A stretch of DNA of 31,191 bases, taken from positions 1 through 31,191 of the forward strand of contig WGBS01000185.1 of NCBI GenBank assembly GCA_015494165.1, given 5' to 3'. The notes beneath the pieces were generated by a model, which made no database searches, was not told the DNA's origin, and saw only the letters and a program-made list of their open reading frames with translations. The DNA is from Gammaproteobacteria bacterium (GTDB taxonomy: Bacteria; Pseudomonadota; Gammaproteobacteria; S144-34). This document shows, in pieces, positions 3,702 to 19,851 of this stretch (the stretch's first letter is position 1; each line of letters opens with the position of its first letter). The translations under genes and the position numbers were made by a program.

Positions 3702-3904
3702 AGAGAGCGGTGGCAGAGACGAGAGACGGGTATCGGGAGGCGAGGGCCGGTCCGCGCTCCGCGCGCGGCCATCTGATCGGGCCTGGAGCCCCTCCCACAA
3801 TCGAGAGTGGCGGGTGGCGGGTGTCGGGAGGCGAGGGTTGGTGCGCCCTTCGGGCGCAGCCTTTTGGTCTTTCCCGTCACCCGTCTCCCGCAGCCCGTCA
3901 CCCG
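3702..3904. repeat. Intergenic heptad (GGG-N4) repeat and hairpin element
   Basis: 19/20 direct repeat at 3727-3746 and 3818-3837 (CGGGT[A/G]TCGGGAGGCGAGGG), each followed by a short GC hairpin; CCC at exact 7-nt period at 3873, 3880, 3887, 3894, 3901. Confidence 0.75.
3842..3872 (+). terminator. Probable intrinsic terminator between convergent genes
   Basis: Stem TGCGCCC-TTC-GGGCGCA (3842-3858) followed by GCCTTTTGGTCTTT. Confidence 0.6.
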
Positions 3905-11544: not shown

Positions 11545-11586
11545 GGCCCAGTCCTCCCTCGGTGCCGGGAGGTGGGCCGCCGCCCG

Positions 11587-11642
11587 TTGCATACCGCAGC
11601 GCAGCAAGCTATGTTTTGGTCTACTGTTGACGTTAACGTTAA
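11587..11642 (+). promoter_or_regulatory. Sigma70-like promoter and MerR-type palindromic operator
   Basis: TTGCAT-N17-TATGTT; near-perfect 16-bp palindrome TTGACGTTAACGTTAA at 11627-11642 directly before RBS AAGGAGG. Confidence 0.55.
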
Positions 11643-11654
11643 AAAGGAGGCGCC

Positions 11655-11894
11655 ATGACAGCCAGTAGTTTCAAGGCGGACGTTCTCATTCACGTGAACA
11701 GCGCCCTCGACGGAACCACCTTCAACCGCGTGGCAGCTGCACTCCGGCGCGTCGAGGGTGTCAACGCGGTCGAGTTCGCTCCCGCAGGCGCACATCTGGT
11801 ACGGGTGAGCTACGACCCCCAGCAGGCACGCTCGGACCGGCTGCTCGAGACCGTGACCGCGCTCGGGCACCAGGCCCAGCTGGTCGGCCTCTGA
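11655..11894 (+). CDS. Small HMA-like (ferredoxin-fold) protein lacking CxxC
   Basis: Strong RBS; 79 aa with the GV..V...HLVRVSYDP....LLETV..LG pattern of HMA folds; contains no Cys. Confidence 0.7.
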
Positions 11895-11899
11895 GCCCC

Positions 11900-12409
11900 G
11901 TGGGCAAAGCACGGAAGACGGTTCCTATCGGCTCGTTCAAGGCGCTCAAGATCGGTGAGGCCGCACAGCGGCTCGGTGTCACCCCTCGAACGCTGCGCTT
12001 CTACGAGGAGCTTGGACTCGTGCAGCCGCACCGCACAGCGCGGGGCACCCGGCTCTACCGAGAGGCCGATCTGAAGCGCCTTGAGGTGGTCCAAACGCTG
12101 GCGCAGCTCGGGATGCCCCTTGCCGAGGCGCAAGCGCTCGCCCGAACGCGGCCAGACAGCGCAAGCGGAGACGAGGCGAGCCATAGAGTGGCCGCAATCT
12201 TGGACCGGCTTGAAAAGGAGCTGGAGGCGAAGATGCACGCCTGCCGAGACACGCTGGCCCAAATCAGGGCCGCTCGACAGGTGGTGGAAGCTTGCTTCGG
12301 ATGTAAGCGTCCACCGACCCGACAGGGCTGTAGTGGGTGTCCGGTCGCCAAACGCCGGCACAGCTCACGACTCTTCAATCTCATATGGGAACCTGACCCG
12401 GAAAGCTGA
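11900..12409 (+). CDS. MerR-family transcriptional regulator with C-terminal Cys cluster
   Basis: IGEAAQRLGVTPRTLRFYEELGLVQPHRTARGTRLY HTH; C-terminal CFGC-x8-CSGC. Confidence 0.9.
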   Translation: MGKARKTVPIGSFKALKIGEAAQRLGVTPRTLRFYEELGLVQPHRTARGTRLYREADLKRLEVVQTLAQLGMPLAEAQALARTRPDSASGDEASHRVAAILDRLEKELEAKMHACRDTLAQIRAARQVVEACFGCKRPPTRQGCSGCPVAKRRHSSRLFNLIWEPDPES

Positions 12410-12533
12410 AGCGCGCGGTAACACGCCGCCCAGCTTCACCAGACGCGGCTTCGCTCCGCGGCCGGTACGGACCATGCGCACCTAGCCTGCGAAGCGCAAT
12501 GGCGCCATGGCCCCAGAGACGAACCCTGCCGGC

Positions 12534-12731
12534 CTAAGGCCTAAGGGTGGTGGCCATGTAGCATCCAATCCGCCAGTTGGTGATGGCCTTCTCGGCCGCC
12601 TCCAGCACCTGGCCGATCCGCTCCTCGTCGAGCCCCAGCCGTGACCTGCGAAGGCGCTTTCGGAGAAGGTCGGCAAGGCTCGCGTCCCAGCGGAATTCGA
12701 CGAGCTCCCAAAAGTCACCAGGCGACCACAT
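12534..12731 (-). CDS. Small hypothetical protein or gene fragment
   Basis: 65-aa ORF with ATG and a GAAGGGG RBS-like sequence; no family recognised. Confidence 0.35.
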   Translation of the reverse strand: MWSPGDFWELVEFRWDASLADLLRKRLRRSRLGLDEERIGQVLEAAEKAITNWRIGCYMATTLRP

Positions 12732-12830
12732 GCGCCCCCCTTCAGCGCAGCCCCTTGTGGAGATGCGCTGCGCCAGGCCGGCAAGGGGAACCGGCTTTTC
12801 GGGAGCGACCCTGGGCGCAGCGGCTGATCG

Positions 12831-13091
12831 TCAGCGGTAGACCTCCTTGCGGTGGCCGACCCTCACCACCTCGATCACGAGTAGCCCGGTCTCGACGGAA
12901 TAGATCAAGCGATAGTCCCCCACCCGTATGCGCCACGTGTGCTCGGCGCCGTGCAGCTTGCGCGCACCCGGCGGGAACGGATCATCCGTAAGCCGCTCGG
13001 CCGCCTCGACCAGCCGGCGTACCGCCTCCCGCGGGAGCTTGCGCAGCTCGCGCTCGGCCGAGCGCTTCCAGACGAGCCTATAGGAGCCCAT
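12831..13091 (-). CDS. RelE/ParE-family toxin
   Basis: 86 aa; YRLVWKRSAERELRKL, KLHG, WRIRVGDYRLIY, VGHRKEVYR. Confidence 0.92.
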   Translation of the reverse strand: MGSYRLVWKRSAERELRKLPREAVRRLVEAAERLTDDPFPPGARKLHGAEHTWRIRVGDYRLIYSVETGLLVIEVVRVGHRKEVYR

Positions 13092-13272
13092 CGGCGCGGA
13101 GCCGCTTGACCAGCTCCTCGTGCGTCACCGTCGGCTCGTCGCGCCGCTCGGCCACCGCCGCGAGGTCCGCCAGGTCCTCGAGCAGCGCCTCGTACTCCTC
13201 GACGGGCAGCACCACCGAGACGCGGTTGCCGTGCTCGTCGGTGATCCAGGCCGGATGCAGCTTCCCGTTCAT
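13078..13272 (-). CDS. Cognate antitoxin (RelB/Phd-like)
   Basis: 64-aa acidic protein (VVLPVEEYEALLEDLADL) overlapping the toxin start by 14 nt; RBS GAGGAGG. Confidence 0.85.
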   Translation of the reverse strand: MNGKLHPAWITDEHGNRVSVVLPVEEYEALLEDLADLAAVAERRDEPTVTHEELVKRLRADGLL

Positions 13273-13284
13273 GGCGGCTCCTCC

Positions 13285-14514
13285 TCAGCGGTTGCGGCCC
13301 GTCACCGGCAGCACAACCACCTTGTCGCCCTCGCGGAGCATGTCCAGGTAGTCGGCCCAGCGCTGCATCATCTCGCGGCGCTGTTCCAGGAAGCGCGTGC
13401 GGTTGTAGGCCCGCCCCAAGCGGTCCGGCACCTCGTGGCCGAGCTGGTGCTCCACCACGTCGGGCTCGTAGCCCAGCCGCTCCGCGAGCAGCGTGCGCGC
13501 CACCGCCCGCCAGCCGTGGGCGGTGATCTCGTTGCGCGTGTCGATGCCCATGCGGCGGTAGGCCGCGTTGATCGCCTCGGCCGACAGCGGCCGCAGCGCC
13601 GAGCGGGCGCCCGGGAACACCCACCCGCCCGGCAGGTGGGCCGTCTGCGGGCGCAGCTCCTCGAGGATCGCCACCGCCTGGCGCGCGAGCGGCACCAGGT
13701 GCGCATGGCCCGTCTTGCTCGCCGTGAAGCGCCACTCGGCCGCCTCGAGGTCCACCTGCTCCCAGCGCATGTGCCGCAGCTCGCCCGGCCGCACGAACAG
13801 CAGCGGCAGCAGCCGCAGCGCCGCCCGCACCACGGGCGTGCCCTGGTAGCCGTCGATCACCCGCAGCAGCGCGCCCACCTCCCGCGGGTCCTCGGGGGCC
13901 GGCATGTGCCGCTGCTCCACCGGGGCGAGCGCGCCCTTCAGGTCCGGCGTGGGGTCACGCTCCGCCCGGCCCGTCGAGACCGCGTAGCGCATCACCTGGC
14001 CGATGTGCAGCAACACCTTCCTCGCGGTGTAGGGGCTGCACTCGCGCTCGGCCCGCCGCACCACCGCCAGCACCTCCGGCGGCTCGATCTCGGCCACGGG
14101 GCGGCGGCCCAGGTACGGAAAGGCGTAGGCCCGCAGCCGCTGGATGACACCGCGCGCGTAGGACGGCGCCCAGCCCGGGGAGCGGTGGGCGAACCATTCC
14201 TCGGCCACGGCCTCGAAGGTGTGGCGCGCCAGCTCCTGGCGGCGCAGCTTCTCCTCGCGCCGCCGCTCGGCGGGGTCCTCGCCCTGGGCGAGCACCCGGC
14301 GGGCCTCGTCACGCAGCACGCGCGCGTCCGCCAGCCCCACCTCGGGATAGCGGCCAAGCGCCAGGCGCTTCTCCTTGCCCGCGAAGCGGTACTTCAGACG
14401 CCACAGCTTCGAGCCCGCCGGGGTGACCTCCAGATAGAGACCGCCGGTGTCGTACACCCGGAAGGTGCGCTCGCGGGGCTTGGTGGCGCGGATGACGGCA
14501 TCGGTCAGCGGCAT
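13285..14514 (-). CDS. P4-family tyrosine recombinase/integrase
   Basis: MPLTD start, arm-binding domain (DTGGLYLEV, WRLKYRFAGKEKRLALG.YP), catalytic RPGELR, K (ASKT), HGWR, LGH and Y (YNR); RBS GGAGG. Confidence 0.95.
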   Translation of the reverse strand: MPLTDAVIRATKPRERTFRVYDTGGLYLEVTPAGSKLWRLKYRFAGKEKRLALGRYPEVGLADARVLRDEARRVLAQGEDPAERRREEKLRRQELARHTFEAVAEEWFAHRSPGWAPSYARGVIQRLRAYAFPYLGRRPVAEIEPPEVLAVVRRAERECSPYTARKVLLHIGQVMRYAVSTGRAERDPTPDLKGALAPVEQRHMPAPEDPREVGALLRVIDGYQGTPVVRAALRLLPLLFVRPGELRHMRWEQVDLEAAEWRFTASKTGHAHLVPLARQAVAILEELRPQTAHLPGGWVFPGARSALRPLSAEAINAAYRRMGIDTRNEITAHGWRAVARTLLAERLGYEPDVVEHQLGHEVPDRLGRAYNRTRFLEQRREMMQRWADYLDMLREGDKVVVLPVTGRNR

Positions 14515-14576
14515 GGCATGGGCCTCCACAGGCGGTGTCGCGGGTTCGATTCCTCGTGGGAACCGAACAGGGCGCG

Positions 14577-14625
14577 TGCCCCCAGGGGGTCGATATGCCC
14601 CCAAATATGCCCCCAGAATGCCCCC
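14577..14625. repeat. Integrase arm-type site array
   Basis: TGCCCCC four times; three copies at 12-bp period (ATATGCCCCCA at 14593 and 14605, AATGCCCCC at 14617). Confidence 0.7.
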
Positions 14626-14635
14626 GTTGGCAATG

Positions 14636-14715
14636 GACGCCGCTGGACGTCACCGGACAGGTTTTTGCTGTAGAGGCGGGACGTTGCGGGAGCCTTTCAG
14701 ACGCCGCTGGACGTC
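14636..14715. repeat. 16-bp perfect direct repeat in the att-int spacer
   Basis: GACGCCGCTGGACGTC at 14636-14651 and 14700-14715. Confidence 0.8.
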
Positions 14716-14729
14716 CCTGAACGCGCTGT

Positions 14730-14805
14730 TGGTGGCCAGGGACGGAATCGAACCGCCGACACGGGGATTTTCAGTCCCCTGCTCTACCAACTGAGCTACC
14801 TGGCC
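14730..14805 (-). tRNA. tRNA-Phe (GAA)
   Basis: 76 nt GGCCAGGTAGCTCAGTTGGTAGAGC...CTGAAAA...GGTTCGATTCC...CCTGGCCACCA; cloverleaf with encoded CCA. Confidence 0.97.
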
Positions 14806-19775: not shown

Positions 19776-19851
19776 GCGGGCGTAACTCAGCTGGTAGAGT
19801 GGCAGCTTCCCAAGCTGCAGGTCGCGGGTTCGAGTCCCGTCGCCCGCTCCA
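19776..19851 (+). tRNA. tRNA-Gly (CCC)
   Basis: GCGGGCGTAACTCAGCTGGTAGAG...CTTCCCAAG...GGTTCGAGTCC...CGCCCGCTCCA, 76 nt. Confidence 0.96.

What the first reader, a model, noticed from the sequence alone, without database searches (positions are those of the whole stretch)
14535..14553. Integrase mRNA leader is complementary to the T-arm of its own target tRNA
Seen: + strand 14535-14553 GTGTCGCGGGTTCGATTCC matches the tRNA-Phe variable loop/T-arm GTGTCGGCGGTTCGATTCC at 17/19, in inverted orientation to the gene (14744-14762). It also matches tRNA-Gly GTCGCGGGTTCGAGTCC (19821-19837) at 16/17. On the integrase mRNA this is an anti-tRNA stretch ending 7 nt before the GGAGG RBS. Inference: read-through pre-tRNA could fold back, or tRNA/tRNA fragments could pair in trans, linking integrase translation to tRNA processing or status. 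Alternatively it is an inverted att relic or a secondary core-type site.
Basis: partly seen in the sequence, partly recalled or inferred. Interest (0 to 1): 0.6.

Follow-up and report, generated by a model that had tools for sequence, protein, structure and literature searches.

The report
tRNA-like palindrome in integrase leader
The integrase gene of a small mobile island beside tRNA-Phe does carry a back-to-front copy of a tRNA T-arm just ahead of its start, but it is half of a local palindrome in a changeable leader module, not a device for sensing the tRNA.

Summary
Window 14535-14553 (+) matches the tRNA-Phe variable loop/T-arm at 17/19 in inverted orientation. It ends 7 nt before the GGAGG of a P4-type integrase, and shuffles expect 0.02 such matches.

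The proposed anti-tRNA riboregulation is not supported:
- The 19-mer is one arm of a 10-5-10 palindrome (14544-14568). This palindrome is perfect in 7 of 8 environmental variants.
- The same island, with the same leader, sits at tRNA-Met in other genomes. Both tRNAs end in GCCACCA.
- In relatives with 90% identical integrase, the tRNA-like core CGCGGGTTCG lies on the opposite strand. In a 93% relative it is gone, and extra integrase arm-type repeats sit there.
- Only 4 of 160 homologous tRNA-linked loci carry any inverted T-arm copy.
- The family has its own conserved promoter inside the arm-type repeats, so int mRNA need not include the tRNA.

Best reading: a tRNA-derived palindrome or hairpin module, about 45 nt, clade-specific, in the autoregulated int leader (attL P' arm). 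It probably acts as a protein operator or an mRNA hairpin.

The scan noted a similar inverted tRNA copy in another island family (e1-5330537).

The window's island is a truncated int-RelB/ParE remnant of a larger int-TA-AlpA-primase element. Interest is modest.

The parts
14535..14553 (+). T-arm-like 19-mer (variable loop, 5' T-stem, T-loop and CC), antisense to int
   Evidence: exact sequence. It is 17/19 to tRNA-Phe 14744-14762 and 16/19 to tRNA-Gly and tRNA-Met.
14544..14568 (.). Palindrome GTTCGATTCC-TCGTG-GGAACCGAAC (10-5-10). The window copy has one G.T position at 14563.
   Evidence: Position 14563 is T, giving a perfect palindrome, in contigs of 4 vent metagenomes and in 7 of 8 cluster variants.
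14523..14527 (-). Ribosome-binding site GGAGG, 8 nt before the ATG
13285..14514 (-). P4-type tyrosine integrase, 409 aa
   Evidence: Arm-DNA-bind_3 (2e-27), Phage_int_M (6e-33), Phage_integrase (5e-17). Translation.
14576..14625 (-). Arm-type repeat block. GGGGGCAT occurs 3 times (14595-14602, 14607-14614, 14618-14625). An inverted copy lies at 14585-14594 and a fourth direct copy, GGGGGCAC, at 14576-14583.
   Evidence: The same repeat type is found in homologous leaders.
14604..14633 (-). Predicted int promoter: TTGCCA, 18 nt, CATATT. It overlaps the arm repeats.
   Evidence: 1 site found against 0.0 in shuffles. TTGAC is enriched in 83 of 218 leaders, with a positional peak.
14636..14715 (+). 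Two 16-nt direct repeats GACGCCGCTGGACGTC (14636-14651 and 14700-14715), a second repeat type in the P' arm
   Evidence: A related GTCCAG motif occurs in L016 and L021.
14730..14805 (-). tRNA-Phe(GAA), the integration target. Its 3' end GCCACCA is the shared core.
   Evidence: Rfam tRNA, 71.8 bits. Empty sites.
12548..12556 (-). Distal junction: a 9-nt direct repeat of the tRNA 3' end (TGGCCACCA)
   Evidence: Homology with intact islands stops exactly here.
12831..13272 (-). RelB-like antitoxin (13078-13272) and ParE toxin (12831-13091), the island cargo
   Evidence: The same gene pair follows int in all variants.

Best explanation
The 19-mer is the 3' arm of a 25-bp palindrome. It sits in a clade-specific module of about 45 nt, between the last integrase arm-type site and the ribosome-binding site. 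That places it in the innermost part of the attL P' arm and in the 5' UTR of int.

The island is a P4-type integrase element. It inserts at the GCCACCA 3' end of tRNA-Phe or tRNA-Met.

I think the tRNA likeness records origin: tRNA T-arm DNA picked up or copied during recombination at tRNA genes. I think the module works locally. It could be a DNA palindrome bound by Int or by the island's AlpA-type excision factor. It could also be the equivalent hairpin in int mRNA. Either would add to the known negative autoregulation of integrase promoters that overlap attL. It does not sense or pair with the tRNA.

- **Shown:** the anatomy, the palindrome, its variants, its rarity, the two targets, and the family promoter motif.
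- **Inferred:** protein binding or hairpin function, and the tRNA origin.
For: - **Palindrome.** It spans 14544-14568. It is perfect in 7 of 8 variants and in metagenome contigs.
- **Two targets, one leader.** An identical leader sits next to tRNA-Met in L278 and L282, and next to tRNA-Phe in the window, L280 and L281.
- **Changeable module.** L286 and L287 (Int 90% identical) carry CGCGGGTTCG in sense orientation plus an extra arm repeat. L279 (93%) has no tRNA-like core but three extra GGGGGCAT repeats at the same place.
- **Conserved in a deep sister.** L039 (61% identical Int) keeps GGATTCGAACC 30 nt before the ATG in a leader of the same architecture. The outgroup L136 has the standard leader.
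- **Promoter position.** In the family the -35 TTGACA peaks 60-80 nt before the ATG. In L001 and L039 it lies 119 and 110 nt before it, so an extra module sits in the 5' UTR.
- **Published precedent.** Integrase promoters that overlap attL are repressed by Int and by the excision factor; P4 Vis is thought to act on int mRNA (PMC2951348). IntS bound at attP shuts off intS (PMC11963761).
- **An excision factor is available.** Intact relatives encode an AlpA-family protein.
Against: - No binding or expression data exist. RNA runs held only about 5% of the sampled words.
- The local hairpin is not more stable than shuffled controls in this 74% GC context (z = -0.19).
- L039 and L021 lack a comparable long palindrome.
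- The palindrome half-site occurs nowhere else in the island, so there is no second site for a cooperative binder.
- The structural turnover among close relatives would also fit a functionless, unstable relic.
Confidence: 0.5

Rival explanations
1. It is a neutral relic. The inverted T-arm fragment is a by-product of aberrant integrase recombination or of template switching at the hairpin-prone T-arm. It is carried along in the attL arm with no function.
For: - It is sporadic: 4 of 160 loci, in at least three separate lineages.
- L022's copy lies at the junction of two different P' arm sets, as in a decayed tandem array.
- The module is rearranged, inverted or lost among relatives 90-93% identical.
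- In L001, L021 and L022 the adjacent tRNA is the best or joint-best match within the own genome, as expected for copies derived from the target.
- An earlier scan note (e1-5330537) reached this reading for another island family.
Against: - The T-loop-like core stays at the same distance from the ATG in L001 and L039, although their integrases are only 61% identical.
- The palindrome is perfect in most variants.
- In the 93% relative that lost it, extra integrase arm repeats sit in that stretch, which hints at a constrained site.
Confidence: 0.3
2. It is a secondary core-type (pseudo-att) site. Read as 9-7-9, the palindrome mimics a tyrosine-recombinase core. It could act as a decoy, or as a real substrate for Int-mediated rearrangement.
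For: - The geometry, 10-5-10 or 9-7-9, fits core sites.
- The module shows an inversion-like polymorphism between versions A and B.
- The window's island seems to have been truncated at an internal pseudo-core, CATGG|ACAC, joined to CCACCA. This suggests Int uses secondary sites.
Against: - The arms do not resemble the sequences flanking the real crossover at GCCACCA.
- Recombination with the tRNA T-arm would invert 190 bp and destroy the only tRNA-Phe gene found.
- No joint at this site was seen in four metagenomes.
Confidence: 0.1
3. The leader is an anti-tRNA stretch that pairs with read-through pre-tRNA or with tRNA or its fragments, coupling int translation to tRNA status.
For: - The potential duplex has 6 + 11 bp, and the minimum-energy fold of a tRNA-plus-leader transcript uses it.
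- No intrinsic terminator is predicted between tRNA-Phe and int.
- L021 has its own tRNA-Met variable loop and T-arm copied at the same distance from the ATG. That tRNA is the unique best match in its genome.
Against: - The same leader serves tRNA-Phe and tRNA-Met.
- The core is in sense orientation in 90% relatives and absent in a 93% relative.
- 156 of 160 homologues lack it.
- L022's copy lies 196 nt from the start.
- int has its own promoter.
- Most homologues carry a terminator right after the tRNA.
- Half of the stretch is sequestered in the local hairpin.
- The mature T-arm is buried in tRNA tertiary structure (established knowledge).
- No Rfam family matched.
Confidence: 0.07
4. The resemblance to a T-arm is chance.
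For: From base composition I estimate about 3.6 chance occurrences of GGTTCGANTCC in the genome. Three non-tRNA occurrences are seen (the estimate is my arithmetic).
Against: - The match extends to 17/19 including the variable loop, inside a 215-nt leader next to a tRNA. Shuffles expect 0.02.
- Similar elements recur in L039, L021 and L022.
Confidence: 0.03

Closest known systems
Autoregulated tRNA-adjacent integrase promoters (KplE1 IntS/TorI; P4 Int/Vis), PMC2951348
   Same: - tRNA and int face the same way.
- The intergenic region is about 215 nt.
- Arm-type repeats overlap a -35/-10 promoter.
- An AlpA-family (Pfam PF05930) gene, a likely excision factor, is present in intact relatives.
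   Different: This clade has an extra module of about 45 nt between the last arm site and the RBS. The module holds a tRNA-like palindrome. No such element is described for KplE1 or P4 in the texts I read.
ICEMlSymR7A IntS, a P4-type integrase that targets phe-tRNA (PMC11963761)
   Same: - P4-type integrase with a tRNA-Phe 3' end target.
- Several arm-type sites in attP.
- Int bound at attP represses int.
   Different: - The arm motif differs (TGKTGGTATC against GGGGGCAT).
- No T-arm palindrome is reported.
- The present island also uses tRNA-Met.
att-site duplications of tRNA 3' ends at genomic-island borders
   Same: They derive from the target tRNA and mark recombination at tRNA genes.
   Different: Those are direct repeats of the segment 3' of the crossover, at the island's far end. 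This is an inverted copy of tRNA positions 44-62, which lie 5' of the crossover, and it sits next to the int start.
T-box and other tRNA-sensing leaders
   Same: A leader with sequence complementary to part of a tRNA.
   Different: - There is no specifier or NCCA pairing and no Rfam match.
- The complementarity is to the T-arm.
- Orientation and presence are not conserved.

Membership tests
P4-type (Arm-DNA-bind_3/DUF4102) tyrosine integrase | N-terminal arm-binding domain, central SAM-like domain and C-terminal catalytic domain | tested here: met
   PF13356 (2e-27), PF22022 (6e-33), PF00589 (5e-17)
P4-type (Arm-DNA-bind_3/DUF4102) tyrosine integrase | Catalytic R...HxxR...Y residues | tested here: inconclusive
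   By eye in the translation: VRPGE, HGWR and RAYNR motifs are present. They were not aligned to a reference structure.
tRNA-inserted genomic island | Integrase next to the tRNA 3' end, and an empty site in relatives | tested here: met
   G001 and G002 join the tRNA-Phe 3' end to window position ~11581; joint 11581>14730 in 3 metagenomes.
tRNA-inserted genomic island | Direct repeat of the tRNA 3' end at the distal border | tested here: met
   9-nt TGGCCACCA at 12548-12556. The repeat is short because the island is truncated.
Autoregulated integrase promoter overlapping attL (KplE1/P4 type) | Same-orientation tRNA-int layout, with Int arm sites overlapping -35/-10 | tested here: met
   TTGCCA-18-CATATT lies within the GGGGGCAT repeats. 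The motif is conserved across the family.
Autoregulated integrase promoter overlapping attL (KplE1/P4 type) | Repression of int by Int and the excision factor | not testable with these tools
   Needs reporter and binding assays
tRNA-sensing or anti-tRNA leader RNA | Complementarity covaries with the cognate tRNA, and its orientation is conserved | tested here: not met
   the same leader sits at tRNA-Phe and tRNA-Met; sense orientation in L286 and L287, absent in L279; 4 of 160 loci.
tRNA-sensing or anti-tRNA leader RNA | Match to a described RNA family (T-box and others) | tested here: not met
   only the tRNA itself scores. Nothing else reached its family's gathering score.
Core-type recombination site of a tyrosine recombinase | Inverted binding arms flanking a 6-8 bp spacer | tested here: met
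   10-5-10, which can also be read as 9-7-9
Core-type recombination site of a tyrosine recombinase | Arms resemble those of the functional att core, and recombination products exist | tested here: not met
   no resemblance to the flanks of GCCACCA; no joint at this site.

The most novel reading that the evidence does not exclude
Inverted copies of the target tRNA in integrase leaders are a recurrent, functional device. They are seen here in at least three lineages of P4-type integrases, and an earlier scan note reports them in an anticodon-loop-targeting family. The proposal is a tRNA-derived pseudo-core or decoy site, through which the integrase's core-binding domain (or its excision factor) shuts off int or holds attL in a closed complex. 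Less likely, it is a genuine anti-tRNA riboregulator.
Probability: 0.13. Interest if true: 0.6.

Novelty: new variant of a known kind. Interest (0 to 1): 0.3.

Why it matters
If the palindrome is a working operator or hairpin, it adds a tRNA-derived cis module to the known autoregulation of tRNA-linked integrases. It would also help explain how such islands tune their own stability.

As it stands, the main value is negative. An attractive tRNA-sensing idea fails its comparative tests.

The side results give a clean natural series for experiments:
- one integrase serves two tRNA targets through a shared GCCACCA end;
- the leader exists in three structural versions among near-identical islands;
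- the window's copy is a remnant truncated at a secondary site.

Tried and rejected
- **Pattern scan of viral contigs** for an antisense T-loop before an MPLTD start. It gave 18 hits: 17 by chance and one integrase without the motif.
- **Search for the leader DNA in the two sister genomes**. Nothing was found; the G001 copy of int starts at a contig end.
- **Search for close relatives of L021's leader**. That family holds only 3 genomes, so nothing usable came back.
- **80 metagenome relatives**. None has the motif near the start.
- **RNA evidence**. Metatranscriptome runs held only about 0.05 of the sampled words.
- **Rfam**. No family matched.
- **Invertible promoter switch between the tRNA T-arm and the leader copy.** Rejected, because inversion would replace tRNA positions 63-76 and destroy the only tRNA-Phe gene found.
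- **Eyeballed LexA, IHF and sigma-54 consensus matches.** None was convincing, and none was tested formally.
- **Cognate covariation within the L001/L039/L043 clade.** L001's element is as close to L043's tRNA-Ala (17/19) as to its own tRNA-Phe. L039's own tRNA is not the best match in its genome.
- **Two literature searches**. Neither found a description of T-arm copies in integrase leaders.

Full report
**Observation**

The + strand at 14535-14553 reads GTGTCGCGGGTTCGATTCC. tRNA-Phe(GAA) lies on the - strand at 14730-14805. Its variable loop, 5' T-stem, T-loop and first two 3' T-stem bases (14744-14762) match the 19-mer at 17/19 in inverted orientation. tRNA-Gly(CCC) matches at 16/19. Shuffles of the window expect 0.02 such matches.

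On the - strand the element is followed by 7 nt, then GGAGG (14527-14523), 8 nt, and the ATG (14514) of a 409-aa integrase. The integrase has Arm-DNA-bind_3, Phage_int_M and Phage_integrase domains.

Within the window's own 2.48-Mb, 74% GC genome, tRNA-Phe is the best-matching tRNA, with 2 mismatches against 3 for five others. The core GGTTCGANTCC occurs only 3 times outside tRNA/tmRNA genes. The stretch is tRNA-like beyond chance.

**Context: what the island is**

Two sister genomes join the tRNA-Phe 3' end directly to window position ~11581. The same joint, 11581>14730, is present in contigs of three hydrothermal-vent metagenomes. So 11582-14729 is inserted DNA.

The part next to the tRNA (12548-14729) holds int, a RelB-like antitoxin and a ParE toxin. 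It ends at a 9-nt repeat of the tRNA end, TGGCCACCA.

Relatives with 93-99% identical integrase show the full element: int, RelB, ParE, a 245-aa ORF, an AlpA-family gene, a 145-aa ORF and a primase/helicase. The window's copy breaks off inside the 245-aa ORF, at CATGG|ACAC. That sequence resembles the att core CCTGG|CCAC. The window's copy therefore looks like a deletion derivative made at a secondary site.

The same island, with the same leader, sits at a tRNA-Met gene in L278, L279, L282, L286 and L287. It sits at tRNA-Phe in the window, L280 and L281. The two tRNAs share the 3' end GCCACCA.

**Anatomy of the leader (215 nt between tRNA and int)**

Reading from the tRNA towards int on the - strand:
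- two 16-nt direct repeats, at 14700-14715 and 14636-14651;
- a predicted promoter, TTGCCA, 18 nt, CATATT (14633-14604), overlapping three GGGGGCAT arm-type repeats;
- an inverted arm-like copy and a fourth direct repeat (14576-14625);
- the palindrome GTTCGGTTCC-CACGA-GGAATCGAAC (14568-14544), whose 3' arm runs on into the rest of the 19-mer;
- the RBS and the start codon.

Across 218 homologous leaders, TTGAC is enriched (83 against 27 for a control word). Its position peaks sharply 60-80 nt before the ATG, directly ahead of each island's own arm repeats. The family therefore has its own int promoter inside the attL arm. This is the layout shown experimentally to be repressed by Int and the excision factor in KplE1, and reported for P4 (PMC2951348; see also PMC11963761).

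In the window and in L039 the -35 lies 119 and 110 nt before the ATG. These two carry an extra module of about 45 nt in the 5' UTR, and the tRNA-like element lies in that module.

**Comparative tests of the anti-tRNA idea**

1. *Frequency.* I compared each leader with the 3' 50 nt of its own tRNA in 160 tRNA- or tmRNA-linked loci (integrases about 37-64% identical to the window's, from genomes and metagenomes).
   - Only four leaders stand out for an inverted T-arm copy: the window, L039, L021 and L022. L021 stands out by its ungapped 15/19 match; its local-alignment score was only 18.
   - In the first 105 loci, local-alignment scores of 20 or more occur 4 times inverted (the window, L022, L039, and an unexamined match in L047) against once direct. 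In the other 55 loci they occur 0 times inverted against once direct.
   - The 80 closest metagenome relatives have none near the start.
2. *Phylogeny.*
   - L039 (61% identity, tRNA-Met) and L043 (tRNA-Ala) form a clade with the window's integrase. The outgroup L136 has the standard leader.
   - L039 keeps GGATTCGAACC 30 nt before its ATG, in the same leader architecture.
   - L021 belongs to another clade. It carries a 15/19 inverted copy of its own tRNA-Met T-arm 22 nt before the ATG. That tRNA is the unique best match in its genome.
   - L022's copy reproduces the unusual T-loop TTCAACT of its tRNA-Leu. However, it lies 196 nt from the start, at the junction of two different arm-repeat sets.
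3. *Specificity.*
   - The window's element matches tRNAs of other genomes and types as well or better: 18/19 to a tRNA-Thr and to another tRNA-Phe, and 17/19 to L043's tRNA-Ala.
   - L039's own tRNA is not the best match in its genome.
4. *Close variants.*
   - Eight full-length members of the 90% protein cluster, plus one 90% neighbour, gave leaders.
   - Seven have the same module, with 14563 C>T. That change makes the palindrome perfect, and it is also seen in four metagenomes.
   - One further substitution in L284, like the window's G at that position, leaves a G.U pair in the int-sense RNA. Two such cases prove nothing.
   - L286 and L287 (90%) keep the palindrome centre, TTCC-CACC-GGAA. 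They carry the tRNA-like core CGCGGGTTCG on the other strand, in sense with the tRNA, followed by an extra arm repeat.
   - L279 (93%) has no tRNA-like core and has three extra GGGGGCAT repeats at this place.
   - Presence and orientation are therefore not conserved even among near-identical islands, and the leader does not change with the target tRNA.

**Folding**

A tRNA-plus-leader transcript folds in silico with the T-arm paired to the 19-mer. Any 17/19 complement would do that. The leader alone forms the 10-bp local hairpin, which occupies 10 of the 19 nt. Neither this hairpin nor L021's is more stable than shuffled sequence (z = -0.19 and -0.20; L039 z = -2.1).

No terminator is predicted between tRNA-Phe and int in the window. 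Most lower-GC homologues, in contrast, carry an obvious terminator right after the tRNA.

**Interpretation**

The element is real and tRNA-derived. The data speak against a tRNA-pairing function. It is best described as a palindrome or hairpin module in the autoregulated int leader. It is retained in a small clade and is structurally plastic.

I favour a local cis role, either as an operator for Int or the AlpA-type factor, or as an mRNA hairpin. Three points support this:
- the T-loop core keeps its distance from the ATG across a 61%-identity split;
- the palindrome is perfect in most variants;
- in the relative that lost it, extra integrase-binding repeats sit in that stretch.

A functionless recombination relic remains a strong rival (0.3). 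A pseudo-core site (0.1) and the anti-tRNA model (0.07) are less likely.

It also reads it as a recombination by-product. Together with L021 and L022, this suggests that such inverted tRNA fragments recur near tRNA-linked integrase genes. I found no description of this in two literature searches.

**Verdict**

I class this as a new variant of a known kind, with modest interest.

Noticed in passing
window 12548-14729; L278:1-4428: The window's int-RelB-ParE unit is a truncated copy of a larger element: int, RelB, ParE, a 245-aa ORF, AlpA, a 145-aa ORF and a primase/helicase. The break lies at an internal sequence, CATGG|ACAC, which resembles the att core and is joined to CCACCA. This suggests an integrase-made deletion at a secondary site.
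   Followed up: partly
L278, L279, L282, L286, L287 against window, L280, L281: One integrase (90-99% identical copies) is found at two different tRNA genes, tRNA-Met(CAT) and tRNA-Phe(GAA). The two share the 3' end CCCTRGCCACCA.
   Followed up: partly
window 11582-12547: A second inserted segment (about 65% GC, two + strand ORFs) lies between the int-TA remnant and the conserved flank. It is absent from empty-site genomes, where 46 nt stand instead. It is probably an older island remnant.
   Followed up: no
L280:1-1520: Upstream of this island copy there is only the 3' part of tRNA-Phe, from the anticodon loop onward. A different 319-aa integrase gene precedes it. This looks like a second island inserted in the anticodon loop of the same tRNA.
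   Followed up: no
L022 (G116:C115), 437-nt tRNA-int spacer: Two different sets of arm-type repeats lie in tandem: a GTTGGTA type, as in L029, then a CCGTAAT type. An inverted T-arm copy sits at their junction. This looks like a decayed tandem array of two islands at tRNA-Leu(TAA).
   Followed up: partly
homologous leaders L136, L138, L142, L145, L147, L042, L083, L087, L040, L041: The family-wide leader design is: TTGACA, three direct arm repeats that contain the -10, a spacer of about 20 nt, then one inverted arm repeat abutting the RBS or ATG. The inverted repeat over the start looks like a built-in translation or transcription block by Int.
   Followed up: partly
window 3715-3869: Two 64-nt direct repeats, 75% alike and 91 nt apart, in a non-coding-looking stretch (family D8).
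   Followed up: no
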